Assembly: GCF_036507355.1 (NCBI RefSeq) | Contig: NZ_AP027877.1 | DNA from: Escherichia coli | GTDB taxonomy: Bacteria; Pseudomonadota; Gammaproteobacteria; Enterobacterales; Enterobacteriaceae | Strand: one strand, 5' to 3' | DNA length: 64,000 nucleotides | Shown: positions 43,725 to 64,000 of the stretch, in pieces | Numbering within the stretch: the stretch's first letter is position 1 | Layout: each line of letters starts with the position of its first letter | Translations under genes and position numbers: made by a program | The notes under the pieces: model-generated | What the model was told of the DNA's origin: nothing | Database searches by the model: none | The model's input: only the letters and a program-made list of their open reading frames with translations

Positions 43725-43775
43725 ACCGCCCCGGGAATCCTGGAGACTAAACTTCCTGAGAAAGAGGTAAACAGG

Positions 43776-45999: not shown

Positions 46000-47444
46000 T
46001 GAGCATTAACCATAATACAGTTGGCGACCAGCTTATCGGCAGCGCGGTTAACGCCATTAATCAGACCCGCATTGATAATGAACTGTTAAAACTATCGCAG
46101 CAGGATCGTGCATTTGAGTTGGCTGGCGAACAAATGCAAAAGGTGCGTGATTTCATCGCGTCACCGGGTAACATCCTGGGCTCAATGAGCACCAAACACG
46201 GTGAAATTGCTGAGCAGGTAGAAGTTGGCGTGCGCAATGCTCGCCAGGCAATAGAAGAAAGGGTTCAGGATGCCTCTGATCTTAGCGCCACGTTTGACGG
46301 AGTGGGTCGAACCGCTCCGGCGGATTATATGATAGATGGCGTTGACGTGCAGTCAAAGTTTATCAACGGAGTTAATAATAACCTGAACCATGTCCTTCAG
46401 CACATGGAAACCTATCCCAATTTCACCCGGGGAGAATCCTTTTACCATATCCCCAAAGACTCCTGGCAAACGATTCAGGATGTTATTGATGGGAAGCCGG
46501 TGGAGGGCTTGAGCGAAAAAACAATACAGGCTATCAGGGATAAAGTTGCAGAAATTGAAAGTACAACGGGAAGATCCTTTAATGATGTCGTGCGTCCTGG
46601 AGTTTCTGATTACAAAGATGTTCAGTGGGGAAAAATTGACGAAACTCTTGATAAACATGATCAGGAATTAGCGGAACAGAACGAGGCAAAAAAAGCAGAA
46701 ATTATTGACGATCACCAACCCTCCCTAAGTGAAGGCATGCGTGCAACCGCAATGGGAGCCGCTTTCGGTGGAACCTTTGCTCTTGTAACAGGTATATATA
46801 GCAAATACCGTGACGGTAAAAATATATTTCGTGGAGATTTCAACAGACAGGACTGGCAGGATGTCGGCTTAGATACATTGAAAGGTGCCGCTATTGGCGG
46901 TGTATCCGCCGGAGCAATTTATACCCTGACCAATTATGCCTCTCTGGGAGCACCGTTCGCCAGCGCGCTGGTCACTGCCGCTAAAGGTGTAAGCAATCTT
47001 GCTCTCTCCTATCAGCGCGGTGAGATTAATGCTGATGAATTTACCGATCTTGGCCTTATCATCTGCGCGGAATCGGCCATCGTTGGCGCAATGTCTGTCG
47101 CAGGTCAGGCAATCATCCCTGTGCCTGTTTTGGGGGCATTGGTTGGTTCTATCTCAGGGAAGTTTATGGTTACCGTAGCTAAAAATCTGGACAGTAAAGC
47201 ACGCCAATTGCTGGCGAAAAAAATGGAGCAATTTACATGTCGCTTAAGTGAGATTGAGCAGAAAGCACTCAACCGAATTTTGAACGAGTTCGCGGCGCTG
47301 GGTGAGCTTACCGCAGCTGCATTTAGCGTGGAAAACAATCGCCGGTTGCTGGAAGCAAGCATCACGCTTGCCCAAGCCCACGGTGTTGAAGAGGCGAAGA
47401 TAATCAAAAATGCGGATGATCTTGACACATTTATGATGGCGTAG
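45999..47444 (+). CDS. Hypothetical membrane protein (N-terminal soluble domain, C-terminal Gly-zipper TM bundle)
   Basis: Start overlaps upstream stop (TAATG); C-terminal GxxxG/A-rich hydrophobic helices. Confidence 0.6.
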   Translation: MSINHNTVGDQLIGSAVNAINQTRIDNELLKLSQQDRAFELAGEQMQKVRDFIASPGNILGSMSTKHGEIAEQVEVGVRNARQAIEERVQDASDLSATFDGVGRTAPADYMIDGVDVQSKFINGVNNNLNHVLQHMETYPNFTRGESFYHIPKDSWQTIQDVIDGKPVEGLSEKTIQAIRDKVAEIESTTGRSFNDVVRPGVSDYKDVQWGKIDETLDKHDQELAEQNEAKKAEIIDDHQPSLSEGMRATAMGAAFGGTFALVTGIYSKYRDGKNIFRGDFNRQDWQDVGLDTLKGAAIGGVSAGAIYTLTNYASLGAPFASALVTAAKGVSNLALSYQRGEINADEFTDLGLIICAESAIVGAMSVAGQAIIPVPVLGALVGSISGKFMVTVAKNLDSKARQLLAKKMEQFTCRLSEIEQKALNRILNEFAALGELTAAAFSVENNRRLLEASITLAQAHGVEEAKIIKNADDLDTFMMA

Positions 47445-47480
47445 CACTCGAATAAAAATTACAGCAAGGATAAAACCACA

Positions 47481-50003
47481 ATGCTACAGATAATTGGTGC
47501 GTTAATTTTACTGGTAATCGGTTTTGTTATTATAAAAGCGTTGTTTAAGGCATCTCTCAATATTCTAGGTGTGATATTAGGATTGGGTGCATTGATTGTT
47601 GCAGGCCCACCTTTATTGGCGGGCTATATTGTAGAGCGCGTAACCTATGCGCTTCACTCACGTTGGCTGCTGGGTGTACCTCTTGCCATAGCAGGAATGG
47701 TGATTAGCTTTATGTGGGGACTTGATGGTAAACATATTGCCTACGAAGCCTATTCATTTGATTCAATGAAGTTTATTTTAACCGCTGCATTTGCCAGTGG
47801 CCTGCTTGCAGTACCTGTACAAACCAAGGCTATTCTACAAAACGGGCTTATACCAGCCGATATCAATGCCAAACTTAAAGAGTATTATTGCTGTTTTTAT
47901 ACGTCTTACTTTTTGATGGCCTGCTCTGCGGCTACACCGTTTATAGCCTGGCAATATAATATCTCATCTTCACTGATGTGGTGGACAGGATTGCTATACT
48001 GGATAGCAGCCTTACTGACACAGTTCTATGCGGCAAACCAAATTCAGGAACTCAAGAAGTTAACTAATGCCATCAATACAGGGTTAAATGAGCAAAAAGC
48101 GATCAATAACCAACTTTGGCTGACGGAACTAAAAGAAGGAAGTAACCTCTCAGCAGAATTCGTAGAGACTATCTATCTTAAGTTGGTCTCACAGCATATT
48201 TTTCAGGGCGATACTCGAGAGCAGGATCTGGCTGGTGAAAACTGGCTTTTAAATGATGCCTGGTATGAAAGAAAGATGGCTGAATTTAATGAGCAGTTAA
48301 ACAGTAAAATTGTACACTCATCAGATGAGCTAAGAAGCCTTTTTGGTAATAGGCTGAATTTACCCTCTGCTGCGAATGATGATCTCCTGAACCGTTATCT
48401 TGATGGTGGGAACTATTATTCTTTTTCGGATGGTCGAAAATTTGTCTCGTTTCACTATGTCGACGAGCTTTGTACCTGCACTTCATGCGGTTTGAGCGAG
48501 ATTAAAAACGCAAAACACCAGGACGGTTGTGGGAGCCAGGAATGGTATTGCTCTGATATTTGCCGGGAAACGGAAAAACTCTGCATTGAAATTCACAAGC
48601 GACCACAGGCTGAATTTATTTCCAGTGCAGCAACAAACGGTCTGATTCTCATGACGCTCCCGGAGGCCTGGAATACTAACGAAAAAATGTTTGCAGTGGG
48701 AGGACAAGGACATGGTTTTGCAGCCGAACGGGGAAATCATCTTACTGACAAAATCCAACTAAAAGATGCACATATTCTCGGTGATGATAATGCGAAAAAT
48801 GGTGCAGACAGGCTGGTTAACGGTTCAGAGATTCAGACCAAATACTGTGCAACCGCTGCACGTAGCGTCGGTGCTGGTTTTGACGGACAAAACGGTAATT
48901 ATCGCTATTATGACAGTAACGGAACCCCAATGCAGTTAGAGGTTCCGAAAGACCAGTATTCGAAAGCGCTTGAAACGATGGAGAACAAAATTCGCGATGG
49001 CAAAGTCCCCGGCGTTACCGATCCTGCAGAAGCCACAAAACTTGTACGTCAGGGACACCTGACTTATAGCCAGGCACAAAACATTACTAAGTTTGGCACG
49101 TTCGAATCTATCACTTACGACATTGCGGAAGGATCTATCATCAGCCTCGCAGCTGGAGGTATCAGCTTCGGTCTGACAGCTTCTATTTTCTACCTCAATA
49201 CCGGCGATCGTAAGGCTGCGTTGCAAACGGCAGCAATACAGGCAGGTAAAACATTTACCCGCACACTGACAGTTTATGTGACGGTACAGCAATTACACCG
49301 TATCAGTGCCGTTCAGGGGTTACTTAAAAATATTGATTTTGCCGCTGCCAGCCCGACAGTTCGTAATGCGCTTCAACAGGGAGTCGGAGCTAACAATCTC
49401 AACTCCCTTAACAAGATGATGCGTGGCACACTGGTTACCTCTTTCGCACTGGTCGCCGTGACCACTGGTCCGGATATGATCAAAATGGTGCGAGGTCGTA
49501 TTTCTGGGGCACAGTTTATAAAAAATCTGGCAGTTACTTCATCTGGTGTGGCTGGGGGGGCAATTGGTTCTATTGCTGGCGGAATGATGCTTAGTCCATT
49601 AGGTCCTTTCGGTGCTTTAGCAGGACGCGCAGCTGGTGGCTTGTTAGGCGGTATGATTGCCACAGCGATTTCCAAAAAAATAGCGGGTGCACTGGTTGAA
49701 GACGACCGAGTAAAAGTGCTGGCTCTCATCCAGGAACAGGTTACATGGCTTGCAACAAGTTTCATGCTTACAGCACACGAACTTGAAAACCTGAACGCGA
49801 ATCTGGCAACAGTAATTGACCAAAAAACCCTGGAGGTTATCTTCGCCGCAAAAGAGCAAGACCGAGCAACGGCCAATATGCTGATTAAACCACTTGTAGT
49901 AAGTGTGGTTAAGCAACGACCGGTCCTGAGCTATGAACAATCGCAAATCTGCGAAATGGTCGATCAGCTTGATACATCGGTTTCATTATCTGCTGTTGCA
50001 TAA
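47481..50003 (+). CDS. Hypothetical large membrane protein (N-terminal TM helices, Cys-rich central region, C-terminal Gly-rich TM region)
   Basis: 840-aa ORF with AAGGA ribosome-binding site; Cys cluster CTCTSCG...CGSQEWYCSDIC; Gly-rich C-terminus. Confidence 0.6.
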   Translation: MLQIIGALILLVIGFVIIKALFKASLNILGVILGLGALIVAGPPLLAGYIVERVTYALHSRWLLGVPLAIAGMVISFMWGLDGKHIAYEAYSFDSMKFILTAAFASGLLAVPVQTKAILQNGLIPADINAKLKEYYCCFYTSYFLMACSAATPFIAWQYNISSSLMWWTGLLYWIAALLTQFYAANQIQELKKLTNAINTGLNEQKAINNQLWLTELKEGSNLSAEFVETIYLKLVSQHIFQGDTREQDLAGENWLLNDAWYERKMAEFNEQLNSKIVHSSDELRSLFGNRLNLPSAANDDLLNRYLDGGNYYSFSDGRKFVSFHYVDELCTCTSCGLSEIKNAKHQDGCGSQEWYCSDICRETEKLCIEIHKRPQAEFISSAATNGLILMTLPEAWNTNEKMFAVGGQGHGFAAERGNHLTDKIQLKDAHILGDDNAKNGADRLVNGSEIQTKYCATAARSVGAGFDGQNGNYRYYDSNGTPMQLEVPKDQYSKALETMENKIRDGKVPGVTDPAEATKLVRQGHLTYSQAQNITKFGTFESITYDIAEGSIISLAAGGISFGLTASIFYLNTGDRKAALQTAAIQAGKTFTRTLTVYVTVQQLHRISAVQGLLKNIDFAAASPTVRNALQQGVGANNLNSLNKMMRGTLVTSFALVAVTTGPDMIKMVRGRISGAQFIKNLAVTSSGVAGGAIGSIAGGMMLSPLGPFGALAGRAAGGLLGGMIATAISKKIAGALVEDDRVKVLALIQEQVTWLATSFMLTAHELENLNANLATVIDQKTLEVIFAAKEQDRATANMLIKPLVVSVVKQRPVLSYEQSQICEMVDQLDTSVSLSAVA

Positions 50004-51072: not shown

Positions 51073-52272
51073 ATGAGATTCCACCCTGAAGGGCCTTCCA
51101 TACCCGATATCCTCTTAGAACGCTGTGATACAGGTCGAGTTGTATTTCTCTGTGGCGCTGGGGTTTCATTACCTTCAGGGATGCCAAGCTTTGTAGAGCT
51201 TACCCAGCATGTAATTGAATACTTTGACCCACCACACGATTCAGAAATCATGGCAGCATTTCGCCCATGGCTTCACGACCAATCTTCAGCTAATGTCCCT
51301 CTCGACCAAATTTTCAACCTCCTACATCTGGAATATGGCAAGGATGAGGTGAATGCTTTGGTATCAAAGCGTCTGGGGACTGCAAGAACTGATATAGAGA
51401 TTGGACGTGAGCATGCCCTGATTAAAAGAATTTCCTCAAATCAGAGTGGTGTCCCACAGATTGTCACAACGAACTTTGACCGACTGTTCGAGGATAACCA
51501 AGCGCAAGATAATCTAACTCGATATGTGCCGCCAGCTTTCCCAAATCTGAATTTCGGTTCGACAATTGAGGGAATAACATATCTTCACGGCCGCCTGGTC
51601 GACGAAAATGCTGTAAACCATCCTTATGTGCTGAGCAGTGCAGACTTTGGAAGAGCATATCTTTCAGAAGGATGGGCGACCAATTTTATTAAGCTTCTTC
51701 TGGAACGATACATCGTTGTTTTGGTCGGTTATCAGGCAGAAGACCCACCAGTTAAATACCTCCTTCAGGGTCTCAATCATGATGGCCAGTATGATCGTTC
51801 CAGACTTTATGCATTTGATCGCGGCCTTGCCGAGGATATCGAAGCCAAATGGCGTGACAGAGGAGTTACAGCCATAGCCTATTCCGATCATCCAGCTCTT
51901 TGGAAGACTTTGGAAGCATGGGCTGAGCGAGTAGATGATCCACGTCGATGGCGAGCTTCTATTATCGCTAAAAGCCAGCAAGATCCGAAAGTTCTAGCAC
52001 CGTATGAACGTGGTCAACTTGCCCATATACTTCGCACTACACAAGGTGCGAAATTGTTCTCTGAAGCTGTTCCTCTTCCCCATCCAGAGTGGCTTTGTGT
52101 GATGGATGCAAATATTCGGTCAGCCAAACAGAAGAAAAGATACTACGAACTTGATGACAATGATGCAGAGACCTTCGATCCACAAGAAGCTTATGGGCTT
52201 GATGACGATCTGCAAGATATCGCTGATGATGAACGTAAACGTGGAGTGAGTAACGATAATCTCCTTGAATAG
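51073..52272 (+). CDS. SIR2-like (sirtuin-family) domain protein; first segment of a larger interrupted reading frame
   Basis: SIR2-type motifs VVFLCGAGVSLPSGMPSF and VTTNFDRLFE; ends at an in-frame TAG (52270). Confidence 0.7.
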   Translation: MRFHPEGPSIPDILLERCDTGRVVFLCGAGVSLPSGMPSFVELTQHVIEYFDPPHDSEIMAAFRPWLHDQSSANVPLDQIFNLLHLEYGKDEVNALVSKRLGTARTDIEIGREHALIKRISSNQSGVPQIVTTNFDRLFEDNQAQDNLTRYVPPAFPNLNFGSTIEGITYLHGRLVDENAVNHPYVLSSADFGRAYLSEGWATNFIKLLLERYIVVLVGYQAEDPPVKYLLQGLNHDGQYDRSRLYAFDRGLAEDIEAKWRDRGVTAIAYSDHPALWKTLEAWAERVDDPRRWRASIIAKSQQDPKVLAPYERGQLAHILRTTQGAKLFSEAVPLPHPEWLCVMDANIRSAKQKKRYYELDDNDAETFDPQEAYGLDDDLQDIADDERKRGVSNDNLLE

Positions 52273-52308
52273 CGCGACGAAGATGATAACCCGTCAGATT
52301 ACCATCGC

Positions 52309-52998
52309 TTGGCTGGATGTTTGGAGACAATGCCGAAACGATTGAGCCATCTCATGGTCTGGTTCTGCAAATCTCTTGATAGCCCCGTGATGGCTTGGTG
52401 GGCTATCCGAAAAATCAGTATTCATCCTCTACTACTACAAAATATTGAACGCAATATTGAGCATTCAACATCAATCCACAAACGCGCTCGTCAACTGTGG
52501 GGCTTAATTCTTGAACATCATAAAGATCCCCGCAATCGTCGTTATGACGTCGATTGGTACGACTTAAAAGCTCGAATTACAAAACAAGGCTGGACAGCTG
52601 GTGTCTTACGAGAATTTCGTAGGGTAATGACACCCCGATTGGAAAAGAAGTTGCCGTATGGATTGGGTGAAGTCAGACCGCCAAGCGGCTCCTGGGAGGA
52701 AATTCAGTTCAGCGAATTTGGCCAATTTGAAGTTGTGTTCACCGAAAGACATGATGACGATTTAGACGTACCTGACAATGTATTACTACAAGTATTTAAT
52801 GCCTTAGAAGCGCAAATAATAATTGCCTCCGGAATGTTAGAGGATATTGATACGCACTACTTTCCAAGCCCAAGTTGTTATCCAGAACGTGCGGTTGAAG
52901 GAGAAGAACATTTCGCGAAAGGTGCGGAGGTATTAACTTGGTTTGTCCAACTTTTAGACCGAGTTGTTATGAAGTGGCCAGAATTGGCTAAGGCATAA
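52309..52998 (+). CDS. Hypothetical protein; same frame as the upstream SIR2 ORF, likely central part of one disrupted gene
   Basis: Frame open from 52273 with no stop; ends at an in-frame TAA (52996). Confidence 0.5.
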   Translation: MAGCLETMPKRLSHLMVWFCKSLDSPVMAWWAIRKISIHPLLLQNIERNIEHSTSIHKRARQLWGLILEHHKDPRNRRYDVDWYDLKARITKQGWTAGVLREFRRVMTPRLEKKLPYGLGEVRPPSGSWEEIQFSEFGQFEVVFTERHDDDLDVPDNVLLQVFNALEAQIIIASGMLEDIDTHYFPSPSCYPERAVEGEEHFAKGAEVLTWFVQLLDRVVMKWPELAKA

Positions 52999-53103
52999 GT
53001 AACAACTTGGCCAGTTAAGGAGCCATTTTTCTTCCGAAAGCTTAGACTTTATGCATTCAGTAAAAAAGGCGTCTTTGAGGCTGACCGTGTTGCCGAAGAG
53101 CTT

Positions 53104-54882
53104 TTGTCTTTGGATCAAAGTGGATTTTGGGACACAAATATTACCCGCGAACTTCTTTTTCTGCTCACTGATCGTTGGGAAGAATTCTCGCAAGAAAATC
53201 AGAATCGAATTATAGAGCATATATTAACCGGCCCGAACCATTTACTTTATTTGTCTGAGGAAGACATTCCAAAAGAAAGAGAGATATTAGCAGCTAGATA
53301 CGCTCGTTATCTCGAACTAAACGGCTGTAAAGTAACCACTATTCATCGTGACCAACTAACTGCGATGATTAAAAGAATTCCTGACTGGAATGATGGCTGG
53401 GCTACATCTGTTGTCATCAATTGGGGTTCACGGACAGGTTGGGTTCGTACAGACGAAAAGCCAGATATAATCTTAGATCTTCCAGCAAACGAAATAATCC
53501 CAAAAGTAAAAGAGATACTTAAACGAGAGGATGATAGCTTTACTAGTAGGCAACCCTTTGTCGGATTGATAAAAGAAAATCCGCGTAAAGCTTTGTCTGC
53601 ACTCGCTATTGCAGGGAGAGGCGGTGATTACCCTAAGGAATTTTGGTCGCCAATGATAAGTGAGTTACCTATAGATCTTAAACCAAGGGTGAGACGAGTA
53701 TTCCTGAACCGAATTGTGCGATTGCCAGTTACAGCTTTGGTCGAGTTACGACATACATTAAGTAACTGGCTTGAACAAAATTTAGCTGCGACTCTTGAAT
53801 TTGATGAGGATCTCGGGTGGGCAGTTTACGATCATGTCATAGCAGGCATACTGAGTGGTGGCGCCAGTGCAATACGGAGTAGTTTCGGAGAAGTTATCCG
53901 GAATGGAGAAGTTGTAATACAGTCTCGCCGCACGTTCAGTCATGCAATCAATGGTCCTGTCGGTAAATGTACTCAAGCGCTTTTTCAAGCAATGCCAAGT
54001 GAAGAGAAAAAAGCTGGTTCGCTTATTCCTTACTCTATTAAGTCTCGTATTGAACATCTTTTTACTGCACCAGGAGAAGGAGCGGACCACGCTATAGCTA
54101 TAACGTCTCGCAATCTAAATTGGCTAATGTTTGTTGATCCTGCATGGGTAAAGGAATGGCTTATACCCCTTTTGGATTTAAAACATCCTGCAGCAGAACC
54201 AGCATGGAATGGTTATCTTCAGTGCAATGCTATGCCTTCAATTGCAGTAGCTGAACTTATTAAACCAGCTTTTCTTAACCTTATCCCTTGGATCGAATCT
54301 CTTTCTTGGGAAAAAGATTATTCAGTTCGAGCTTCGCAATGGCTTGGCTTAATGAGAATGTTTCACCCTGATGAGCCCTCCAGTCCTTCCAGGAATGAAA
54401 TGCGCTCCATATTACGAGCATTATCTGACGAGGCTCGAAATCGTTTTATTTCCTGGTTAGGATTGGTCGGGCAGAAAAACGAGAGTGGCTGGGTTAAGTA
54501 TGTGATCCCATTAATCAGAGAGGACTGGCCCAAAGAACGCCAATATAGAACCACGAGCTCTGTAAAAGCATGGATTGGTTTACTTGACGATACTGGCGAT
54601 AAGTTTCCGGAGGTTTACGATTCAGTAAAAACATACTTAGTACCAATCGAGACAATTGATCATTTGTTCTACAGATTCACTCGGGAGCTCGGTGGTAAAG
54701 GAGCAATTGCGGCTATTTTTCCAGAAACCACGCTTGATTTAATGGACAAAATAACACCACTGATATTCACGCGTACATCAGGAGAGCTGCAGAAGATTCT
54801 TGAGCTAATTGAAGATACAGATACAAGTCTGATCAAGGATTCTCGGTACTTACGGCTTATTGCACTGGTTGAGAAAAATTAG
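53104..54882 (+). CDS. Hypothetical protein; same frame as the two upstream ORFs, likely C-terminal part of the SIR2-containing gene
   Basis: Frame open from 52999 with no stop; 592-aa helical protein, no motif recognised. Confidence 0.5.
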   Translation: MSLDQSGFWDTNITRELLFLLTDRWEEFSQENQNRIIEHILTGPNHLLYLSEEDIPKEREILAARYARYLELNGCKVTTIHRDQLTAMIKRIPDWNDGWATSVVINWGSRTGWVRTDEKPDIILDLPANEIIPKVKEILKREDDSFTSRQPFVGLIKENPRKALSALAIAGRGGDYPKEFWSPMISELPIDLKPRVRRVFLNRIVRLPVTALVELRHTLSNWLEQNLAATLEFDEDLGWAVYDHVIAGILSGGASAIRSSFGEVIRNGEVVIQSRRTFSHAINGPVGKCTQALFQAMPSEEKKAGSLIPYSIKSRIEHLFTAPGEGADHAIAITSRNLNWLMFVDPAWVKEWLIPLLDLKHPAAEPAWNGYLQCNAMPSIAVAELIKPAFLNLIPWIESLSWEKDYSVRASQWLGLMRMFHPDEPSSPSRNEMRSILRALSDEARNRFISWLGLVGQKNESGWVKYVIPLIREDWPKERQYRTTSSVKAWIGLLDDTGDKFPEVYDSVKTYLVPIETIDHLFYRFTRELGGKGAIAAIFPETTLDLMDKITPLIFTRTSGELQKILELIEDTDTSLIKDSRYLRLIALVEKN

Positions 54883-55040: not shown

Positions 55041-55769
55041 TTATTGAAATTGCTCAAATATACCATGCAACCCAATAAATTTTATTTTTAGTGCAGGATC
55101 ATGCCTTAGAACAGTCTCAAGTGAGTTCCGCTCATAAATTATTGATTGTGCTTGTATTGAGCCGTTCCATGAAGGCAAAAGCAGTAAAGCAGATGTTTCC
55201 AAATCAATACCCCACCAATCGTTAACATAGCAATTTAAAAAATCAACAAGAGCCTTAATCGCAATAAAAGCATCTTTTTCGGTATATGTTTCAGGATCGA
55301 GGGATATACCTGATATATTACTTTTAGCTTGCTCGGAATTAATATTAGACTGGTGTTGATAAGCAATTTTTCCTTCACCCGGTTTAGTTTCTATTGTATC
55401 AGTGAAAATTTTAATCTTAGGATGCACCAATGCATTTCGTTGTGCTATTAATTCTTTTATTATTTGTGTTTGAGTGGTTCCACGAGGTAAAGACATGTCT
55501 TTATGCCATTGAAGAGTATAGTCAAATTTATCAAGTGAAGAGAACCTGTCAATTTGATCTTTTAACTTTTGCGTTATTTCTATAGAAGATAAAAATGAGT
55601 TAGCTGCAGCCTCAATAGCGTAGTTAATTGAAAGTACACTTGATTTGGCAAGTGTTTTTTTGATGTGTGATTTTTTTGTTGCAGCTGATAATTCATAAAG
55701 AGTTATTGCATCAGAAAAAAGCTCAAAAAAGCTGTTCTTGGTTATTTCAACTTTTCTTTTCACACGCAA
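55041..55769 (-). CDS. Hypothetical protein (third gene of AT-rich operon)
   Basis: 242-aa ORF, visibly AT-rich; no motif recognised. Confidence 0.6.
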   Translation of the reverse strand: MRVKRKVEITKNSFFELFSDAITLYELSAATKKSHIKKTLAKSSVLSINYAIEAAANSFLSSIEITQKLKDQIDRFSSLDKFDYTLQWHKDMSLPRGTTQTQIIKELIAQRNALVHPKIKIFTDTIETKPGEGKIAYQHQSNINSEQAKSNISGISLDPETYTEKDAFIAIKALVDFLNCYVNDWWGIDLETSALLLLPSWNGSIQAQSIIYERNSLETVLRHDPALKIKFIGLHGIFEQFQ

Positions 55770-55852
55770 CCCTCTGCATAAAAAATAAAATCATATAGAC
55801 AGAATACAATTTCCTATAATCTTTACATTCTACTAATTGTGGATATAAATGG

Positions 55853-57325
55853 CTATCGAGAATAAGAACTGGGTTTAGGAAAACCACCTCTGACGACGAC
55901 AACAACAATTGCAACTTGAGATTGACCTGTTGGATGAGTGAATACTTCAATATCATCCTCTATTACTCCCACCGGCGCTGATTTTGACGTTGATTCCAGA
56001 ACAACCAAAATACCGATACGCTTACCTAATCCAATGGCATAAGCTGCTGTTTGATCGAAATATTTTTGAAAATCCTTGGGAAAAAGAACCTTATTATTTT
56101 CAACTTTTAGTTCTATCGGAATGTCTTCAAATGTGAGATCCGTTATCCCGCCAGCAGCCTCTGGATGGCCTTGTAATTTCTCGCCAATCTCATTCCTACT
56201 TCTAAGCATTTCGGCTATTTTACGCTGAAATTTTTGCTCTGATGTGCCAGCAATAAATAAACTAGCTTTAAGAGCTTGTGCTGCAACATTTCCTAAGCCG
56301 CCAAGTATAACCATTGTATTAGCAATGTCATCTGAGTGTAATCCAGGGAAAGCTCGTAATATGTTACGAATTTTTATAAGATGCCTATCGACGTTTGAAA
56401 ATCCAGTTAATGGAGCTTGAGCGGAATCACTCCCTTCAAGTAGTAAGCGCCTATGTCCTACGATAGCAATATTTTGGCAATTACTTAAATTGTCAAACTC
56501 GGCAGCATATAGGAATTCGTAAGGTCTCGAGCCAAATGAATTTGCCACTTCCAAGACGACACGACCGATCCCCTTCAGTGTGAAGGGGCCTTCCCCCTCT
56601 GGTTTCTCAAATCTAAAATCAGGCAACCAGTCTCGCTCACGAGCATCAATTGTCACTGGCTTTAATGAGAGGAAATTTGCACTTTTTGGCCAATTTGAAA
56701 CCCTGACCTCTATGTTAAGGTCATAAGCCGTACCCGGCTTAAGATAATTCCATTGCTGAGCTGGTTCCCCATCAATATCAAACTTTAGAAATGCAACTGT
56801 CGATTCTTGTGTTTTATTCTCTTTTGTCTCTTTACTAGATATTCCTTGCCTAATCTCCTCAATATTTTTATCGCGAAGATTTGCGAATAAGAGTAGTGGC
56901 AATGACCAGCTTGTTAACTGGTCTTGTATTTGTTTTAATGAATCTAATTTACTGATTGAACGGACTTGCTCTATAAATTCATTAAATTGTTTGTTCTCCG
57001 AGAGACTCGTCGTCATGTCGATCTCTGATGCTTTTAATTGTGCTGAATTTAAAAACCTTTGAGCATCAGTCTCAGCATTACGTATAGCATGTTTCCACTC
57101 AGCTAGAGTTACAAATATAGTCATTGCTATATAATATGCACGATATTGATCTTCAACATATCCCTGACCGAGCTCATCGAGCGTTTCATTGAGCTTTTGA
57201 CACGCTTCTTTAAGTTTCACCAAGTCATTCGGAATGGACTTGAGTGCACCATCCAACGCTGCTGCAATCTCAACCCTCGGAGAAAAAGCTTGGCGGAAAA
57301 TCTCGAAATTTGGCTCGTTCTTCAT
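55853..57325 (-). CDS. Hypothetical protein (second gene of AT-rich operon)
   Basis: ORF 55853-57367; start placed at ATG 57325; overlaps the 3' end of the upstream gene. Confidence 0.6.
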   Translation of the reverse strand: MKNEPNFEIFRQAFSPRVEIAAALDGALKSIPNDLVKLKEACQKLNETLDELGQGYVEDQYRAYYIAMTIFVTLAEWKHAIRNAETDAQRFLNSAQLKASEIDMTTSLSENKQFNEFIEQVRSISKLDSLKQIQDQLTSWSLPLLLFANLRDKNIEEIRQGISSKETKENKTQESTVAFLKFDIDGEPAQQWNYLKPGTAYDLNIEVRVSNWPKSANFLSLKPVTIDARERDWLPDFRFEKPEGEGPFTLKGIGRVVLEVANSFGSRPYEFLYAAEFDNLSNCQNIAIVGHRRLLLEGSDSAQAPLTGFSNVDRHLIKIRNILRAFPGLHSDDIANTMVILGGLGNVAAQALKASLFIAGTSEQKFQRKIAEMLRSRNEIGEKLQGHPEAAGGITDLTFEDIPIELKVENNKVLFPKDFQKYFDQTAAYAIGLGKRIGILVVLESTSKSAPVGVIEDDIEVFTHPTGQSQVAIVVVVVRGGFPKPSSYSR

Positions 57326-59843
57326 ATTCTTTCTCCAACTCAGCCGTAAGACCATTCCATTTTTCAATTAAGTCATTATAGGGTTCGCAAACACTTATGG
57401 CATGTTCAATGCTAGCTGCTTCTGTAACTAAAGCAGCCTTAAGTTTCCATTGTGTATTTCTTTCATCATTTGGAATTTCTTCCAGTAGTTCCTTTAAACA
57501 AACATTTGCAGTTACGTTATCACCACACTTGCTTAACGCAGCCACGTACACTAATGCTTCAATAAATTGTTGAGGTTTAAATGGTTTCAGAGCATTGAAT
57601 GCTTTTTGGAGATCGTCTTTACAATTTCGAAGCTCATTATGTGGCGCTCTTAATATCACTGAGATGCAGTCATCAATAGAAATACTGCGAGTATACTCAT
57701 CCTGAATTGCTTTGAGTGCGACTTTGACAAAACCGGGAATATCATCAAAATGAAAACGCAATCGATTGATAGCATCATAAAGTGCACTTCCTTCTAAAAT
57801 TAATAATATATTAGAAAGAAGCAATCCAATTTTCCCCTTTCTCTCTTCATCTGATAAGCAAAGAGAAGAAAAAACGTCAATGCATTCTACAATGAAATTA
57901 TCTTTTTTATCTTGTTGAATATAATAGCAAATTAGATTCCATAGCCGGGATCTCACAAGTCCCCGTTTCTCCTCAGGAAAAGATCTACGGCTCAAAGCGC
58001 GAACAGCATACTGATGCACCATAACATATTGATCTAATAGCAAGACTGAATATGCTTCGAAGAATAAATCTGGGAAATTCTTCACTAAATCATAGGGAAC
58101 ATTTTCCCACGCTTGTACGGCACGTGCTCGAATCAATGTACTCTCATCCATAAGAGCACGATACCAATCGGAGAGCACTAGTGTTAGGCTGTCAATACCA
58201 GTTAATAACTTAGAAACATGGGCAATCATGTTCCCACGCATTTGAGTTTGTTCTTCTGGTAAGCTTCTATAGAGATGAAGAAAATCATCGATTCCTTCAC
58301 TCCCTCTAGATTTAGCTCCAATCGCAGCCCATTCAATCAATGCACCCTGTAAGCCATCAATAGCATTACGCTTATTACTTTTATCTAAATGATCTAGAAA
58401 ACTCTCATTTATTTCTATGATTTTTTCTTTATTCAACGCCTCAAATTTCTCGCTTAGCGTTGCAGCCGCTCCGATCAAATCGTCAAAATTATCAACTGCA
58501 AGCTCAGCAAATTCGTCCCAAGAGTGTCTAAAGAATTGTCCTGCATCATCCATGCTATCCTCTGGATTTTCCACAGCAGCCCAGAGCAAACGCCTAAAAG
58601 CTATTTTTTGTGTCTTTCCTGTTTTACTTTTTTTTCTATAGTTATTTCGCAGTACAGATCTGTAAGCTCTATTGGCCTCATGTCTCCCAATATCATCTTT
58701 GTCAGCAAGATAGGATTGAATAACTTTATCGCTTTCATCGGGAAATCTATCTAAGTATTTCGTAGCAGCCTCCCGAAGAAAGAAAAGAATGCTGCTATCT
58801 CTCCGCTCCTCCGGGAGTAGAGTCCGTCGACGCATCAGCTTAGCAAATATACTTCTAATATGTCTTAGAAGCAGCTCATCATCATCCGATGCAATAATTA
58901 TCTCAATAGCAAATTGAAATTTTCCCCGGTGAGTATCTTTTATGTATTCATCAACAACATCACAGATATCAGCTTGTCTTTTTTTAAAAAGTGACTGAAT
59001 GGGGCCTTTATTAAGTACTTTTCGCTCAAATGTGCCAATCATCATTCCAGGAGGAGATTCAACAGCCATTCTAACAAAGTGGTAAAGGACTTTTAAGAAA
59101 TCATCTTCAGATAGATTCTCTGCTTCCAAGAGGATTGCTTCTATAGCTGGTGGACAATATTCGAAGTTGTTTATTAAATATACTGAAATTGCCAGTTTTT
59201 CCGCTTGTGATAATTCAGTTCTTATTAAAGCTTTTGCTGCTGGCATTGAATATGGTAATTTCTCATGTAACACTGCAGGCAACAAGTGTTCAATTATTTT
59301 ACTTGTAAATGTCTCAGGTGCCAGATTAGCAAGTTGTTCCAAACGGGGATCGTTGTTCTCTATATCCTCTTGATCGAGTTCATCAAGCAAATCAAGCACA
59401 AACGTTTCTTCTAGAGTAAGTGAAAGACGTAATACTGCTCGTTCTTGTTGTCTATTGAGCTGCTTCTGCTTTCTCTGCCTTTCTTCTTCTTTGCGAGCCA
59501 AATTTCGTTCTTCGGCAGATTTTTCTCTTGGGCCTACAAACTCTAAAATATTGGGAAATCCCACCGGAACCCGTTGATTACAATGTTTACAGTTCTGTTT
59601 ATAGAAGCTGTAAACCGAGTCTTCCAGCAGCCAGCTAAGCATTGAACTTTGCTTAACAAATTTGCATTGAACTCCCATGTGACCAATGGGTAACCCTGTT
59701 TCAGCCTCAATCATGCCTCTCCCCTCTGATCGAATGAATTCAGAGTGAGAACACCAGTTACTAAGTAGGTGTACAGCACGGAGATTTCGTTGACCAGCTT
59801 CGATTGCCTCTTCAAATCTTTTTTTATCTTCAAAATCATCCAT
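57270..59843 (-). CDS. Hypothetical large protein (first gene of AT-rich operon), N-terminal Cys/His cluster
   Basis: 857 aa; N-terminal C/H-rich segment (CSHSEF...C...CKHCNQ), then charged coiled region and helical repeats; no NTPase motif. Confidence 0.6.
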   Translation of the reverse strand: MDDFEDKKRFEEAIEAGQRNLRAVHLLSNWCSHSEFIRSEGRGMIEAETGLPIGHMGVQCKFVKQSSMLSWLLEDSVYSFYKQNCKHCNQRVPVGFPNILEFVGPREKSAEERNLARKEEERQRKQKQLNRQQERAVLRLSLTLEETFVLDLLDELDQEDIENNDPRLEQLANLAPETFTSKIIEHLLPAVLHEKLPYSMPAAKALIRTELSQAEKLAISVYLINNFEYCPPAIEAILLEAENLSEDDFLKVLYHFVRMAVESPPGMMIGTFERKVLNKGPIQSLFKKRQADICDVVDEYIKDTHRGKFQFAIEIIIASDDDELLLRHIRSIFAKLMRRRTLLPEERRDSSILFFLREAATKYLDRFPDESDKVIQSYLADKDDIGRHEANRAYRSVLRNNYRKKSKTGKTQKIAFRRLLWAAVENPEDSMDDAGQFFRHSWDEFAELAVDNFDDLIGAAATLSEKFEALNKEKIIEINESFLDHLDKSNKRNAIDGLQGALIEWAAIGAKSRGSEGIDDFLHLYRSLPEEQTQMRGNMIAHVSKLLTGIDSLTLVLSDWYRALMDESTLIRARAVQAWENVPYDLVKNFPDLFFEAYSVLLLDQYVMVHQYAVRALSRRSFPEEKRGLVRSRLWNLICYYIQQDKKDNFIVECIDVFSSLCLSDEERKGKIGLLLSNILLILEGSALYDAINRLRFHFDDIPGFVKVALKAIQDEYTRSISIDDCISVILRAPHNELRNCKDDLQKAFNALKPFKPQQFIEALVYVAALSKCGDNVTANVCLKELLEEIPNDERNTQWKLKAALVTEAASIEHAISVCEPYNDLIEKWNGLTAELEKEYEERAKFRDFPPSFFSEG

Positions 59844-60246
59844 TTAGATAACACCCTTATAAGGAACATGTACTCATCTAAAATGCTGTTACCGGATTAT
59901 TATACCTAAAACAATGAATGCTGTGTATTATGAAATGTGATATAAGTCAATTAGTTACATATAAAAACCAACTCACATCCAAAAGGATAGTATTTCGAGG
60001 TTTGTAGCATCATTAAATGTGAACTTATTTATCGCCCCCTCAAGTTAACTAATAAATAAGTTATAATTTACATATACTTCTGGAATTTAGAAACCTTATA
60101 TCTAATAGTTGAGTAAGTTAATAATCAACTTGAGTGTGATTCATAAAAAAAATAATTATTATTTTCAGCCCCTCCATTATGGAGGAGCAATAATAGTATA
60201 GTTTTCCTGTATTCCTAACGATCCAGTTAGGCTTAGAGAAATCTAA

Positions 60247-61443
60247 TTATGAAGCACTCCTGAGAGCAACCCTTCCAACTTTATCAATATAATCCGCATA
60301 CCACTGCATCATCTCTCTCCTGCCTTCCAAATACAGCGCATGGTTGTACGTCCCGCGAATCGCATTCTTATCGACATGCGCAAGCTGGGTTTCAATCCAT
60401 GCGGTATTGAACCCTTCCTCATGCAAAATCGTACTCATCGTGTGGCGGAAACCATGCCCCGTTACCTTCCCCGTGTACCCAATCCGCTTAAACACCTGAT
60501 TAATACTCGCTTCGCTCATTGTTTTGCGGGGATCATTCCTCCCAGGAAACACCAGAGGATATTGCCCAGACATCACTTTGAGCTGCTGTACGATCTCCAG
60601 CGCTTGGGTAGAGAGGGGCACCAGGTGAGGCCGTTTCATCTTCATGCGCTCTGCAGGTATTTCCCACACCGCTTTTTCAAGATCAAACTCACTCCAGAAA
60701 GCACCTCGAAGCTCACCGGTGCGAACCCCCGTAAGGATCAGCAAACGTGCGGCAAGAACAACCAGCGGGCTGCCTGTATAGCCAGAAAGAGCTTTAAAGA
60801 AATCTGGTAACTCCTCAACGGTAAGGAAGGGATAATGCTTCGATTCATGCCCTGACATCGCGCTGGTTAGATCCGCAGCCGGATTGTATTCCGCACGACC
60901 GGTAACTATGGCGTAGCGAAAGACTTCGCTGCAGCGCTGGCGAACTTTCTTGGCCTTCTCTGTCGCACCACGGCTTTCCATTCGACGCAGTACATTCAAC
61001 AGAACAAGAGGCTTAATTTCATTGACTGGCTGCTGACCGATATAGGGAAAAATATCTTTATTTAAAGCTTCGATAATGTCCGATGCATACCCTTCTGACC
61101 ATCTGCTCACCTTCGTACCGTGCCACTCAAGCGCCACAGACTGGAACGTATTATTGAGCTGCACATCACGAACCAGCTTTTCTTCTTTCTTGGCAAACGA
61201 TGGATCGATACCCTCGGCCAGCTTTTTCTTGGCTTCATCGCGTAGTGCCCTCGCTTGAGCAAGGGACACTGCCGGATAAACGCCAAAAGCCATACGCTTC
61301 TCTTTTCCATTGAAGCGATATTTCATTCGCCAGTATCGAGAACCAGAGGGAACGACTTCAAGATACAAACCAGCACCATCTGCCAGCTTATAGGCTTTCT
61401 CTCTGGGTTTAGCTGCATCTACCTGTCGCGCATTTAGCTTCAT
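60247..61443 (-). CDS. int: P4-type tyrosine integrase (island right end)
   Basis: Start taken at MKLNARQVDAAKP (ATG 61443); boxes VRTGELR, GHGFRHT, RGTYNHALY; paralogous to the integrase at 14127. Confidence 0.9.
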   Translation of the reverse strand: MKLNARQVDAAKPREKAYKLADGAGLYLEVVPSGSRYWRMKYRFNGKEKRMAFGVYPAVSLAQARALRDEAKKKLAEGIDPSFAKKEEKLVRDVQLNNTFQSVALEWHGTKVSRWSEGYASDIIEALNKDIFPYIGQQPVNEIKPLVLLNVLRRMESRGATEKAKKVRQRCSEVFRYAIVTGRAEYNPAADLTSAMSGHESKHYPFLTVEELPDFFKALSGYTGSPLVVLAARLLILTGVRTGELRGAFWSEFDLEKAVWEIPAERMKMKRPHLVPLSTQALEIVQQLKVMSGQYPLVFPGRNDPRKTMSEASINQVFKRIGYTGKVTGHGFRHTMSTILHEEGFNTAWIETQLAHVDKNAIRGTYNHALYLEGRREMMQWYADYIDKVGRVALRSAS

Positions 61444-61606
61444 TGGGGGCATCTCCCTGGACCGAACACAGAATGCCCCCACTTATGCCCCCAACTGTAA
61501 CTTGATTCCGGTTGAGTCCAGTTGATAACAGGAGATAAAATACGGGCTAGAAACCGCAGTATACGGGCTTTTAGTTGATTTCGGTAGACTTGGGAAGAGT
61601 TTGAAA

Positions 61607-61655
61607 TGGTGCCGATAATAGGAGTCGAACCTACGACCTTCGCATTACGAATGCG
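61607..61655 (-). other. thrW: tRNA-Thr(CGU) 3' fragment, 49 nt (anticodon arm to CCA); att-core remnant, not a complete tRNA
   Basis: Reverse complement CGCATTCGTAATGCGAAGGTCGTAGGTTCGACTCCTATTATCGGCACCA folds as anticodon stem-loop (anticodon CGT), T-arm and acceptor 3' strand; 5' half absent. Confidence 0.8.
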
Positions 61656-62603: not shown

Positions 62604-63127
62604 ATGGGCATCAAACAACACAATGGGAATACCAAAGCCGATCGTCTCGCTGAATTAAAAATCCGTTCGCCCTCAATTCAACTGATAAAATTTGGCGCTA
62701 TTGGTTTGAATGCAATTATCTTTTCCCCCCTGCTGATAGCTGCTGATACAGGAAGTCAATATGGCACCAATATTACTATTAATGATGGTGACAGAATTAC
62801 AGGAGATACCGCCGATCCATCAGGAAACCTCTATGGTGTAATGACCCCAGCAGGAAACACGCCTGGCAATATCAACCTGGGTAATGATGTCACCGTCAAT
62901 GTCAACGACGCCTCTGGATATGCAAAAGGAATCATTATTCAGGGCAAAAACAGCTCCCTGACAGCTAACCGACTCACAGTAGATGTTGTTGGTCAAACCT
63001 CTGCCATCGGCATTAATTTAATTGGTGACTATACCCATGCTGACTTAGGCACAGGCAGCACCATTAAGAGTAACGATGACGGCATCATTATTGGGCATAG
63101 CTCAACACTAACAGCCACTCAATTAAC
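62604..63127 (+). pseudogene. Autotransporter/adhesin-like gene, N-terminal 174 codons, truncated by the IS3-family copy at 63128
   Basis: ATG with AGGAG ribosome-binding site; hydrophobic signal-like segment then G/N/T-rich beta-helix-like repeats; reading frame runs into the IS terminus. Confidence 0.5.
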
Positions 63128-64000
63128 TGAATCGCCACGGATAATCTAGACACTTCCGAGCCGTTGATAATACTGGTTTTCATATTCTGTCGGTGACATC
63201 TGATCGCTGGAACCATGCCGACGCTTACTGTTATAAAACATTTCGATGTAATCAAAAATATCGCTGCGGGCTTCTTCCCGCGTTCCGTAGATCTTTTTCT
63301 TTATCCGTTCGCGTTTCAACAACTGGAAAAAGCTTTCTGCAACCGCATTATCATGGCAGTTACCGCGACGGCTCATGCTGCCATCCAGGCCGTGTGATTT
63401 CAGGAACGACTGCCACTCATGGCTTGTGTACTGACTGCCCTGATCCGAATGAACCAGCACCTGTTTTTGGGGATTACGGCGCCATACAGCCATCAGCAGT
63501 GCGTTCAGGACAATGTCCTTTGTCATCCGGGATTGCATGGACCAGCCGATAATTTTGCGTGAGAACAGATCAACAACCACGGCAAGATACAGCCAGCCTT
63601 CGTGGGTCCTGATGTAGGTTATGTCCGTTACCCAACGCTTATCCGGAGCATCCGGATTGAACTGTCGCTGGAGCCTGTTGGGCGACACGATACTGGCCTC
63701 GCCTTTACGTGCCCGCGGGCTCCGGTATCCGACCTGAGCCTTTATCCCGACACGTTTCATCAGTCGCCAGACTCTGTTCACTCCGCACTGTTGCCCGCTG
63801 TCCCGCAGATCCAGATGGATTTTGCGATAACCATAGACGCATCCCGATTCCAGCCAGAACTGTTTAATCTGCCCTGTCAGCCTCAGGTCTGCCTGATGGC
63901 GTTGTGAATGCGGCTGCTGAAGCCAGGCGTAAAAACCACTGGGATGAACATCCAGCACCCGACAGAGCAGGCGAACAGGCCAGCAACAGGTGTTGTCACG
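63128..64000 (-). mobile_element. IS3-family insertion sequence, second copy (partial in window), direct orientation relative to copy at 44-1272
   Basis: Identical to copy 1 from its terminus TGAATCGCCACGG onward; the two flanks differ, so these are separate insertions. Confidence 0.85.
63146..63958 (-). CDS. IS3-family transposase OrfB (copy 2)
   Basis: 270-aa ORF identical to the one at 62-874. Confidence 0.85.
   Translation of the reverse strand: MLDVHPSGFYAWLQQPHSQRHQADLRLTGQIKQFWLESGCVYGYRKIHLDLRDSGQQCGVNRVWRLMKRVGIKAQVGYRSPRARKGEASIVSPNRLQRQFNPDAPDKRWVTDITYIRTHEGWLYLAVVVDLFSRKIIGWSMQSRMTKDIVLNALLMAVWRRNPQKQVLVHSDQGSQYTSHEWQSFLKSHGLDGSMSRRGNCHDNAVAESFFQLLKRERIKKKIYGTREEARSDIFDYIEMFYNSKRRHGSSDQMSPTEYENQYYQRLGSV

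What the first reader, a model, noticed from the sequence alone, without database searches (positions are those of the whole stretch)
55041..59843. AT-rich three-gene operon of large proteins with no recognisable domains, next to the right-end integrase
Three co-directional, overlapping ORFs (857 aa, about 490 aa, 242 aa) in a visibly AT-rich block next to the integrase and convergent with the SIR2 gene. The first has an N-terminal Cys/His cluster followed by a highly charged coiled region and helical repeats. None shows Walker, nuclease, methyltransferase or other catalytic motifs that I can see. Size, base composition and position are typical of horizontally acquired defence cargo.
Basis: partly seen in the sequence, partly recalled or inferred. 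Interest (0 to 1): 0.7.

Follow-up and report, generated by a model that had tools for sequence, protein, structure and literature searches.

The report
Olokun defence operon plus HEPN gene
The supposed domain-less three-gene operon is a known two-gene anti-phage system, Olokun (a HEAT-repeat scaffold protein plus a DNA nuclease), followed by a separate HEPN-type putative RNase gene that travels with it in only one enterobacterial lineage, so it is ordinary defence-island cargo with one modestly interesting add-on.

Summary
The three minus-strand ORFs are real, AT-rich, intact and under purifying selection. They are not domain-less.

- **Genes 1 and 2** (59843-57270 and 57325-55853) match the PADLOC models OloA (7.5e-77) and OloB (5.5e-58). 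This is the Olokun anti-phage system.
  - OloA is predicted as a HEAT/adaptin-like alpha-solenoid with four invariant N-terminal cysteines.
  - OloB carries an invariant D396...E405-x-K407 PD-(D/E)xK nuclease motif.

Across about 60 related loci, OloA-OloB is always a pair. Gene 3 follows it only in an Enterobacterales clade (OloB at least 83% identical). In that clade the three genes have diverged together. It is absent from one nested enterobacterial lineage and from all 29 more distant loci with enough downstream sequence. Its own relatives stand alone elsewhere, for example as a single-gene integron cassette in Vibrio.

Best reading: a canonical Olokun system plus an autonomous HEPN module, inside a multi-system defence island. 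The convergent SIR2 gene is DSR1 and here carries two premature stop codons.

Novelty is low: a new member of a known kind. A true three-component Olokun variant remains possible, at about 0.2.

The parts
57270..59843 (-). oloA: 857-aa Olokun subunit A. It has an N-terminal module with four invariant Cys, a long charged helix (residues 99-139) and a HEAT/ARM (adaptin-like) alpha-solenoid (144-847).
55853..57325 (-). oloB: 490-aa Olokun subunit B, with a C-terminal PD-(D/E)xK nuclease domain (D396, E405, K407). Its start overlaps the end of oloA by 56 nt.
   Evidence: PADLOC OloB PDLC03926, E 5.5e-58, and a LmuA C-terminal match at 5.9e-14. D396, E405 and K407 are invariant in 15 homologues spanning 65-88% identity. 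The ATG at 57325 has a GGAGA ribosome-binding site. The overlap is conserved in the loci where gene calls were available and tblastn match coordinates indicate a similar overlap elsewhere.
55041..55763 (-). Gene C: 240-aa HEPN-domain protein and putative RNase, with R109-N-x3-H114 and a conserved GTG start. It is a lineage-specific neighbour of oloAB.
55764..55852 (-). The oloB-gene C spacer, 89 nt. Its length is conserved (87-93 nt) but its sequence diverges. It holds a promoter-like site, TAGCCA-17-TAGAAT, and an AGAGGG ribosome-binding site. No terminator is predicted.
59899..59927 (-). Promoter-like site (TACACA-17-TATAAT) about 55 nt upstream of the oloA ATG. It lies inside the stretch that stays homologous in loci with otherwise different flanks.
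   Evidence: This is a consensus match only.
51073..54882 (+). Neighbour, not part of Olokun: a DSR1 (SIR2) defence gene convergent with gene C. In this window it is interrupted by two in-frame stop codons.
   Evidence: The intact 1269-aa homologue matches PADLOC Dsr1 at 2.1e-88. The stops are TAG at 52270-52272 (TGG in L008) and TAA at 52996-52998 (CAC in L008). The gene is intact in strain PSJ-29.
60247..61482 (-). Neighbour: a P4-type tyrosine integrase of the island, followed by a 3' fragment of tRNA-Thr(CGT) at about 61607-61655 (an att remnant).

Best explanation
The block is a canonical two-gene Olokun anti-phage system (oloA-oloB) with a separate HEPN gene attached downstream.

**Shown here**
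- OloA and OloB are homologues of the PADLOC Olokun proteins.
- OloA is a HEAT/adaptin-like alpha-solenoid with a conserved Cys4 N-terminus.
- OloB keeps the PD-(D/E)xK catalytic triad.
- The two genes overlap by 56 nt and are adjacent wherever upstream sequence was available.

**Taken from the literature on a Pseudomonas homologue**
- OloA and OloB form a 2:2 complex. [quoted passage not shown]
- The complex degrades some phage DNAs and nicks plasmid DNA, but does not degrade E. coli genomic DNA.

**Inferred for this locus**
- OloA is the sensor or scaffold that holds the OloB dimer in check.
- On infection the complex cuts phage DNA.

**Gene C**
- It is a 240-aa HEPN protein with an intact Rx4H site, so it is most likely a metal-independent RNase.
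- Its family is autonomous elsewhere. Members occur as single-gene integron cassettes and as lone genes in variable regions.
- Most Olokun loci lack it.
- I therefore read it as an independent RNA-targeting abortive-infection or toxin-type module. It was captured next to oloAB in an ancestor of an Enterobacterales clade and has been co-inherited since, together with DSR1 in most members. I do not read it as an obligatory Olokun subunit.
For: **Olokun identity**
- PADLOC OloA 7.5e-77 and OloB 5.5e-58.
- Invariant D396/E405/K407 in OloB.
- Published 2:2 OloA-OloB complex, PD-(D/E)xK activity and substrate pattern (bioRxiv 10.1101/2025.07.10.664194).
- OloA lies directly upstream of OloB in every related locus that had upstream sequence, including 46 metagenome loci.

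**Gene C is HEPN**
- Invariant RNxxVHPK motif.
- AFDB neighbours carry HEPN names.

**Gene C is separable from Olokun**
- No gene C or HMM relative in 29 loci with OloB at 55-78% identity and at least 900 bp downstream. Their downstream genes are heterogeneous and often on the opposite strand.
- Absent from Enterobacteriaceae loci L021-24 (OloB 84%). There, nucleotide homology stops exactly at the oloB stop codon.
- Absent from Serratia JSRIV001 and Marinobacter.
- Gene C relatives at 45-77% identity have no oloAB nearby in Budviciaceae, Alkalimonas, Thalassotalea, V. campbellii and V. parahaemolyticus.
- In V. parahaemolyticus it is a single-gene cassette between two attC-like repeats.
Against: **Signs that gene C could be functionally tied to Olokun**
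- Within the Enterobacterales clade the trio looks like more than a casual neighbourhood.
  - The three genes show similar dS in each pairwise comparison (0.35-0.54, 0.69-0.81 and 0.59-0.72).
  - The gene C tree is congruent with the OloAB tree.
- The trio persists when flanks differ. L007 lacks DSR1 and sits at another site. The islands use tRNA-Thr or tRNA-Arg.
- The 87-93-nt spacer length is kept, and no terminator is predicted between oloB and gene C. Co-transcription and functional coupling are therefore not excluded.

**Limits of the evidence**
- Nothing was measured on this 857/490-aa subfamily. I could not align it directly with the experimentally tested Olokun proteins.
- RNase activity of gene C is inferred from fold and motif alone. 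Pfam HEPN models reach only i-E of about 2e-3 to 6e-3 in a few family members.
- A free-standing HEPN RNase with no visible antitoxin is unusual.
Confidence: 0.65

Rival explanations
1. A genuine three-component Olokun variant. In the Enterobacterales clade the HEPN protein is co-transcribed with oloAB and acts with it, for example as a second, RNA-cleaving effector or as a fail-safe released when a phage blocks the OloAB nuclease.
For: - Co-divergence and congruent trees for all three genes over about 20% amino-acid divergence.
- The trio is retained in different genomic contexts and on islands with different integrases.
- Spacer length is conserved, and no terminator is predicted between oloB and gene C.
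- All three genes are under similar purifying selection.
Against: - Most Olokun loci are two-gene, including a lineage nested inside the same clade.
- The published two-protein complex is active on its own.
- The gene C family lives alone as an integron cassette.
- DSR1 shows the same co-inheritance in most members. Linkage alone therefore does not separate a partner from a neighbour.
- A promoter-like site exists in the spacer.
Confidence: 0.2
2. Gene C is not a defence gene. It is an addiction or toxin-like or otherwise selfish cassette gene (or a regulator) that hitch-hiked into the island. Olokun is the only defence function in the finding's coordinates.
For: - It occurs as a promoterless single-gene cassette in Vibrio chromosomal integron arrays among acetyltransferases and small unknown genes.
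- No PADLOC model matches it.
- It stays intact in the E. hormaechei island after oloAB was deleted.
Against: - Many of its non-Vibrio contexts are defence-like. In Budviciaceae it sits beside a PLD-helicase and a KAP NTPase; here it sits beside Olokun and DSR1.
- HEPN RNases are recurrent defence effectors (established knowledge: Anantharaman et al. 2013).
- No antitoxin partner is visible, which a stabilising toxin would need.
Confidence: 0.12
3. One reading: a previously unknown three-gene defence system made of large proteins without recognisable domains.
For: - Pfam, NCBIfam and PHROGs give nothing significant for any of the three proteins.
- RefSeq annotates all three as hypothetical.
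Against: - PADLOC identifies OloA and OloB.
- Nuclease and HEPN catalytic motifs and folds are present.
- The three-gene unit is not conserved beyond one clade.
Confidence: 0.02

Closest known systems
Olokun anti-phage system (OloA/OloB; named by Millman et al. 2022; biochemistry in bioRxiv 10.1101/2025.07.10.664194)
   Same: - Both PADLOC models match over nearly the full length.
- The gene order is oloA then oloB.
- OloA is an adaptin-like solenoid.
- OloB has a C-terminal PD-(D/E)xK nuclease.
- Subunit sizes (about 97 + 55 kDa, estimated from the 857- and 490-aa lengths) are roughly consistent with the published 2:2 complex of about 278 kDa.
   Different: - This is the highly conserved 855-857/490-aa subfamily. 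It is at least 55-60% identical across phyla and matches the 596- and 556-position PADLOC profiles with long insertions.
- It carries an invariant Cys4 N-terminal module that I did not find described.
- In this clade it is followed by a HEPN gene that is not part of the Olokun definition.
Free-standing HEPN proteins of the Apea-like / AbiU2-like / RiboL-PSP-HEPN groups (Anantharaman et al. 2013 classification; from memory)
   Same: - A single HEPN domain with an Rx4H motif, about 240 aa.
- Scattered in defence islands and mobile cassettes.
- AFDB neighbours carry these names.
   Different: - No Pfam HEPN family is matched significantly.
- There is no PADLOC AbiU or other Abi match.
- It has an extra beta-hairpin and a C-terminal helical extension.
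HEPN-MNT type II/VII toxin-antitoxin modules and RnlA/LsoA toxins
   Different: - No MNT nucleotidyltransferase or other antitoxin gene lies beside gene C, here or in the Vibrio cassette.
- Sequence identity is only 10-14%.
Lamassu LmuA (Cap4-type nuclease effector)
   Same: The OloB C-terminus (residues 376-503 of the 504-aa ORF) matches the C-terminal 130 positions of a PADLOC LmuA model at 5.9e-14. The nuclease module is therefore shared.
   Different: There is no LmuB SMC or LmuC partner. The N-terminal two thirds of OloB are unrelated. The partner is a HEAT-repeat protein.

Membership tests
Olokun | A protein homologous to OloA | tested here: met
   PADLOC PDLC03925, E 7.5e-77. Residues 43-854 match profile positions 17-576 of 596.
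Olokun | A protein homologous to OloB | tested here: met
   PADLOC PDLC03926, E 5.5e-58. Residues 22-504 match profile positions 2-551 of 556.
Olokun | oloA and oloB adjacent and co-oriented as one operon | tested here: met
   Same strand with a 56-nt overlap. The arrangement holds in all related loci that had upstream sequence.
Olokun | OloB carries an intact PD-(D/E)xK nuclease active site | tested here: met
   D396, E405 and K407 are invariant in alignment A3. The C-terminal LmuA nuclease-region match is 5.9e-14. The fold of OloB itself was not modelled.
Olokun | OloA is an adaptin-like helical-repeat protein without an NTPase motif | tested here: met
Olokun | [quoted passage not shown] | not testable with these tools
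   Known only for the Pseudomonas homologue.
HEPN superfamily (gene C) | Rx4-6H catalytic motif | tested here: met
   R109 and H114 are invariant in 25 family members (motif RNxxVHPK), and N110 is nearly invariant.
HEPN superfamily (gene C) | HEPN helical-bundle fold | tested here: met
HEPN superfamily (gene C) | Significant match to a curated HEPN family model | tested here: inconclusive
   Pfam HEPN_RiboL-PSP and HEPN_Cthe2314 reach only i-E 2.4e-3 to 5.8e-3, in 2-3 of 25 members. There is no hit for the window protein itself.
HEPN superfamily (gene C) | RNase activity | not testable with these tools
   Inferred from motif and fold only.
HEPN-MNT toxin-antitoxin | An adjacent MNT nucleotidyltransferase or other cognate antitoxin gene | tested here: not met
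   Gene C lies between oloB and the convergent DSR1 with no small partner ORF. In Vibrio it is the only gene of its cassette.
   The trio is found in nine loci other than the window, all with OloB at least 83% identical (L007, L008, L009, L015-17, L029, L030, L063). It is absent from L018-L024 and from 29 metagenome loci with enough downstream sequence.
DSR1 (neighbouring SIR2 gene) | Intact SIR2-plus-C-terminal-domain protein of about 1250 aa | tested here: not met
   Homology to Dsr1 is clear: 2.1e-88 for the intact L008 copy. The window copy has two in-frame stop codons.

The most novel reading that the evidence does not exclude
In an Enterobacterales clade, Olokun has become a three-component system. 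A HEPN RNase, recruited from a pool of free-standing cassette genes, is co-expressed with the OloA-OloB DNA-nuclease complex. It serves as a coupled second effector or fail-safe, so that DNA and RNA are both targeted. This would be a natural example of a defence system gaining a new effector module.
Probability: 0.2. Interest if true: 0.55.

Novelty: new member of a known kind. Interest (0 to 1): 0.3.

Why it matters
The main result is a correction. The locus should be annotated as Olokun plus a HEPN gene plus a DSR1 pseudogene, not as a new system.

Three points may still be useful to specialists:
- This 857/490-aa Olokun subfamily is unusually conserved across phyla. Its OloA has an invariant Cys4 N-terminal module, which AF2 does not resolve and which I did not find discussed. 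It is a candidate metal-binding or sensor element.
- The stable oloAB-HEPN(-DSR1) block gives a clean natural test of whether co-inherited defence neighbours cooperate.
- The HEPN family (about 430 cluster representatives) is absent from PADLOC. It could be tested as a single-gene defence candidate.

Tried and rejected
- **Profile libraries.** Pfam, NCBIfam and PHROGs scans of all three proteins gave nothing significant.
- **PDB sequence searches.** Searches with single sequences and with profiles gave nothing meaningful for OloA, OloB or gene C.
- **IMG/VR viral contigs.** No relative of gene C or OloB was found, so there is no evidence for a phage origin.
- **Genome-contig scan with OloB.** It returned only 4 loci. 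I used the metagenome scan to enlarge the sample.
- **A 95%-identical gene C on an E. hormaechei 'plasmid' without oloAB** looked like independent carriage. It turned out to be the same island at proA/tRNA-Thr with window 55877-59782 deleted. I did not count it as an independent context.
- **HEPN-MNT toxin-antitoxin and AbiU membership.** Both were considered and rejected: there is no partner gene and no PADLOC match.
- **Recurrent alternative third genes downstream of oloB.** I looked in other lineages. Three co-directional candidates have no PADLOC hit, and no recurrent family stood out by size or position. I did not cluster them formally.
- **Millman preprint.** The text held in the library does not contain the word Olokun, and the 2025 preprint has no supplements held. 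I therefore could not align this locus directly with the experimentally tested operons.
- **Zorya coordinates transferred from strain ET826** did not fit the window. I rechecked the upstream ORFs directly.
Full report
**1. The observation**

Three minus-strand ORFs occupy 55041-59843:
- 59843-57270, 857 aa.
- 57367-55853, 504 aa at most. The conserved start is the ATG at 57325, preceded by GGAGA, which gives 490 aa.
- 55769-55041, 242 aa from a TTG. The start conserved across homologues is the GTG at 55763, which gives 240 aa.

GC is 0.34-0.40 over the block, against 0.42-0.55 in the surrounding sequence. Genes 1 and 2 overlap by 56 nt. Genes 2 and 3 are separated by about 89 nt, so 'overlapping' is true only for the first pair.

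A P4-type integrase follows at 60247-61482. A SIR2 gene converges on gene 3 and ends at 54882.

The window is E. coli chromosome. The block is 99.9-100% identical to six complete genomes and is found in only 6-7 of 5426. RefSeq calls all three proteins hypothetical.

The ORFs are real genes. Against homologues in a metagenome contig, Yersinia proxima and Serratia proteamaculans, dN/dS is 0.13-0.19 for each of the three.

**2. Genes 1 and 2 are Olokun**

Pfam, NCBIfam and PHROGs are silent. PADLOC-DB matches gene 1 to OloA (E 7.5e-77) and gene 2 to OloB (E 5.5e-58). The OloB C-terminus also matches the C-terminal nuclease region of a LmuA model (5.9e-14).

In an alignment of 15 OloB homologues (65-88% identical), D396, E405 and K407 are invariant within GGITD-LTF-D-IPIELKVE. 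This is a classical PD-(D/E)xK signature.

For OloA:
- The four cysteines C31, C60, C85 and C88 are invariant in 24 homologues.
- AlphaFold2 (mean pLDDT 80) leaves residues 1-100 unresolved. It predicts a long charged helix at 99-139 and an all-alpha repeat solenoid at 144-847.

This agrees with the literature on a Pseudomonas Olokun (bioRxiv 10.1101/2025.07.10.664194):
- The complex degrades T7, SECphi17 and SPO1 DNA and nicks plasmid DNA. It does not degrade E. coli genomic DNA.
- Olokun is not among the systems listed there as having a Walker A motif.

The statement that no nuclease motif is present was not.

**3. Gene 3 is a HEPN protein**

It has no PADLOC, Pfam or NCBIfam match. A word-indexed search found 34 homologues in Gammaproteobacteria, some named 'RiboL-PSP-HEPN' or 'HEPN AbiU2-like' by UniRef. 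An exhaustive profile search found 428 cluster representatives at E no greater than 1e-3, mostly proteins of about 230-250 aa.

AFDB50 neighbours are annotated as Apea-like, AbiU2-like or RiboL-PSP HEPN. Pfam HEPN models only graze a few family members. Superfamily membership therefore rests on fold and motif, and no specific curated family is met.

**4. Is it a three-gene unit?**

*Olokun-centred view.* OloA lies directly upstream of OloB in every related locus that had upstream sequence. These comprise 4 genomes, several assemblies and 46 metagenome contigs.

Gene C follows oloB only where OloB is at least 83% identical to the window:
- E. coli-like and Enterobacter-like islands at tRNA-Thr (L008, L009, L029, L063).
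- Serratia bockelmannii (L015).
- A metagenome contig with different flanks and no DSR1 (L007).
- L030.
- Yersinia proxima and Serratia proteamaculans (L016, L017).

None of the 29 loci with OloB at 55-78% identity and at least 900 bp of downstream sequence has gene C or any HMM-detectable relative. Their downstream genes are heterogeneous and often on the opposite strand.

Inside Enterobacteriaceae, L021-L024 (OloB 84%) carry oloAB on a P4-like element (integrase ... oloAB-AlpA-DUF927) without gene C. There, nucleotide homology to the window stops exactly at the oloB stop codon.

*Gene C-centred view.* Relatives at 45-77% identity sit without oloAB in Budviciaceae, Alkalimonas, Thalassotalea, a metagenome island, Vibrio campbellii and V. 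parahaemolyticus. In V. parahaemolyticus the gene is a single-gene cassette bounded by attC-like repeats at L012 7864-7985 and 8720-8844.

The conserved unit is therefore oloAB. Gene C belongs to an autonomous, mobile family.

**5. The association is not trivial within the clade**

- A neighbour-joining tree of OloA+OloB groups all trio loci in one Enterobacterales clade. The gene C tree is congruent with it.
- dS is similar for the three genes in each comparison: 0.35-0.54 versus L007, 0.69-0.81 versus L016, and 0.59-0.72 versus L017. The three genes have been inherited together since the clade's ancestor.
- L021, which lacks gene C, is nested in this clade. That implies a loss, or a module swap at the oloB stop codon.
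- The block sits on islands with different integrases and attachment sites, tRNA-Thr or tRNA-Arg.
- The spacer keeps its length (87-93 nt) while its sequence drifts. It contains a promoter-like site and no predicted terminator.
- DSR1 is co-inherited in the same way in most members (81-100% amino-acid identity). Linkage alone therefore cannot distinguish a functional partner from a stable neighbour.

**6. Mechanism**

- *Shown:* homology, motifs, folds and gene arrangement.
- *From the literature:* the OloA2B2 complex and selective DNA cleavage.
- *Inferred:* in this locus, OloA (HEAT solenoid plus Cys4 module) acts as sensor or scaffold for the OloB nuclease dimer, which cuts phage DNA on infection. 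Gene C is a HEPN RNase acting independently as an abortive-infection or toxin-type module.

I give this composite reading 0.65. Olokun identity alone is about 0.95. The alternative, that the clade has evolved a true three-component Olokun with a coupled RNA-targeting effector, gets 0.2. A non-defence cassette gene gets about 0.12. A wholly new domain-less system gets about 0.02.

**7. Context**

The window is a mosaic defence island:
- A type I R-M system with an embedded PDC-S11 gene (35070-42507).
- A truncated zorA (42801-43724).
- PDC-M09A and PDC-M09B (45154-47444).
- An 840-aa protein (47481-50003).
- arsC.
- DSR1.
- The HEPN gene.
- Olokun.
- The integrase, followed by a 3' fragment of tRNA-Thr.

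The island is eroding in this lineage:
- DSR1 carries two in-frame stop codons here.
- ET881 has an IS1 in DSR1.
- ET826 has ISKpn26 in oloA.
- L009 has a split oloA.
- An E. hormaechei copy has lost oloAB altogether.

In the window itself, oloA, oloB and gene C are intact.

**8. Verdict**

The finding is a real, intact, horizontally acquired defence locus. It is a member of a known system that general-purpose domain libraries miss.

Novelty is 'new member of a known kind', and interest is 0.3. The residual interest lies in two places. One is the clade-specific, co-diverging HEPN add-on; no paper in the searchable library mentions Olokun and HEPN together. The other is the conserved, undescribed Cys4 N-terminus of OloA.

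Noticed in passing
window 51073-54882 (+): The convergent SIR2 gene is DSR1. The intact homologue matches PADLOC Dsr1 at 2e-88. In this window it has two in-frame stop codons: TAG at 52270-52272 (TGG elsewhere) and TAA at 52996-52998 (CAC elsewhere). There are no indels, so it is probably a pseudogene here. It is intact in E. coli PSJ-29 and carries an IS1 insertion in ET881.
   Followed up: yes
window 59576-59753 (OloA residues 31-88): OloA has four invariant cysteines (C31, C60, C85, C88) and a nearly invariant H55. They lie in an N-terminal region that AF2 cannot model (pLDDT 30-55). This may be a zinc-binding or sensor module. I did not find it mentioned in the Olokun literature I could read.
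   Followed up: partly
loci L018, L032-L072; proteins P0099, P0125, P0189, P0264, P0272: This 855-857/490-aa Olokun subfamily is 55-70% identical in amino acids across very distant phyla: Synechocystis, Desulfatiferula, Geomobilimonas, Chlorobiaceae, Sulfurospirillum and Marinobacter. Lengths are almost invariant, and gene calls show the same 56-nt oloA/oloB overlap where available. This points to strong constraint, wide recent horizontal transfer, or both.
   Followed up: partly
window 35070-42507 (-): A type I restriction-modification system: hsdR 35070-38204, hsdS 39384-40826 and hsdM 40759-42507. A PADLOC candidate gene, PDC-S11 (38204-39439, E 3.5e-173), is inserted between hsdR and hsdS.
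   Followed up: partly
window 42801-44989 (+): A truncated zorA (307 aa, matching only positions 1-295 of a 727-position ZorA1 model) is followed by a 296-aa ORF with no PADLOC hit. This may be a remnant of a type I Zorya system: the related strain ET826 carries zorC and zorD followed by an IS3 element at the corresponding place.
   Followed up: partly
window 45154-50003 (+): PADLOC candidate system PDC-M09: M09A at 45154-45999 (2e-120) and M09B at 45999-47444 (3e-214). An 840-aa membrane-associated protein follows (47481-50003) and is weakly similar to PDC-M09B. It might be a third component.
   Followed up: no
window about 61607-61655: A 48-49-nt 3' fragment of tRNA-Thr(CGT) lies next to the integrase, but there is no complete tRNA anywhere in the window. 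In L008 and L015 the same island abuts an intact thrW next to proA. In E. coli the neighbour is ycgV/dhaR, so the island end here is an att remnant or has been rearranged.
   Followed up: partly
L012 7864-8844 (V. parahaemolyticus); also L026: A 54%-identical homologue of the HEPN gene is a single-gene integron cassette flanked by attC-like repeats of about 120 nt. It lies in a long cassette array that also holds a HEPN_Swt1-like gene.
   Followed up: yes
L025 (E. hormaechei pRHBSTW-00844_2, 361 kb): This 'plasmid' carries chromosomal core genes (gpt, frsA, crl, phoE, proBA) and the same island. The segment corresponding to window 55877-59782 (oloAB) is deleted, the integrase is frameshifted and IS3 elements are inserted, but the HEPN gene is intact.
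   Followed up: yes
L021-L024 (Enterobacteriaceae): A two-gene Olokun (OloB 84% identical) sits in the cargo position of a P4-like element (integrase, 214-aa gene, oloAB, AlpA, DUF927 primase). The same system is thus carried by a different kind of mobile element.
   Followed up: partly
window 62604-63958: The autotransporter gene ycgV appears cut after about 181 codons by an IS3-family element (transposase ORF 63146-63958, minus strand).
   Followed up: no
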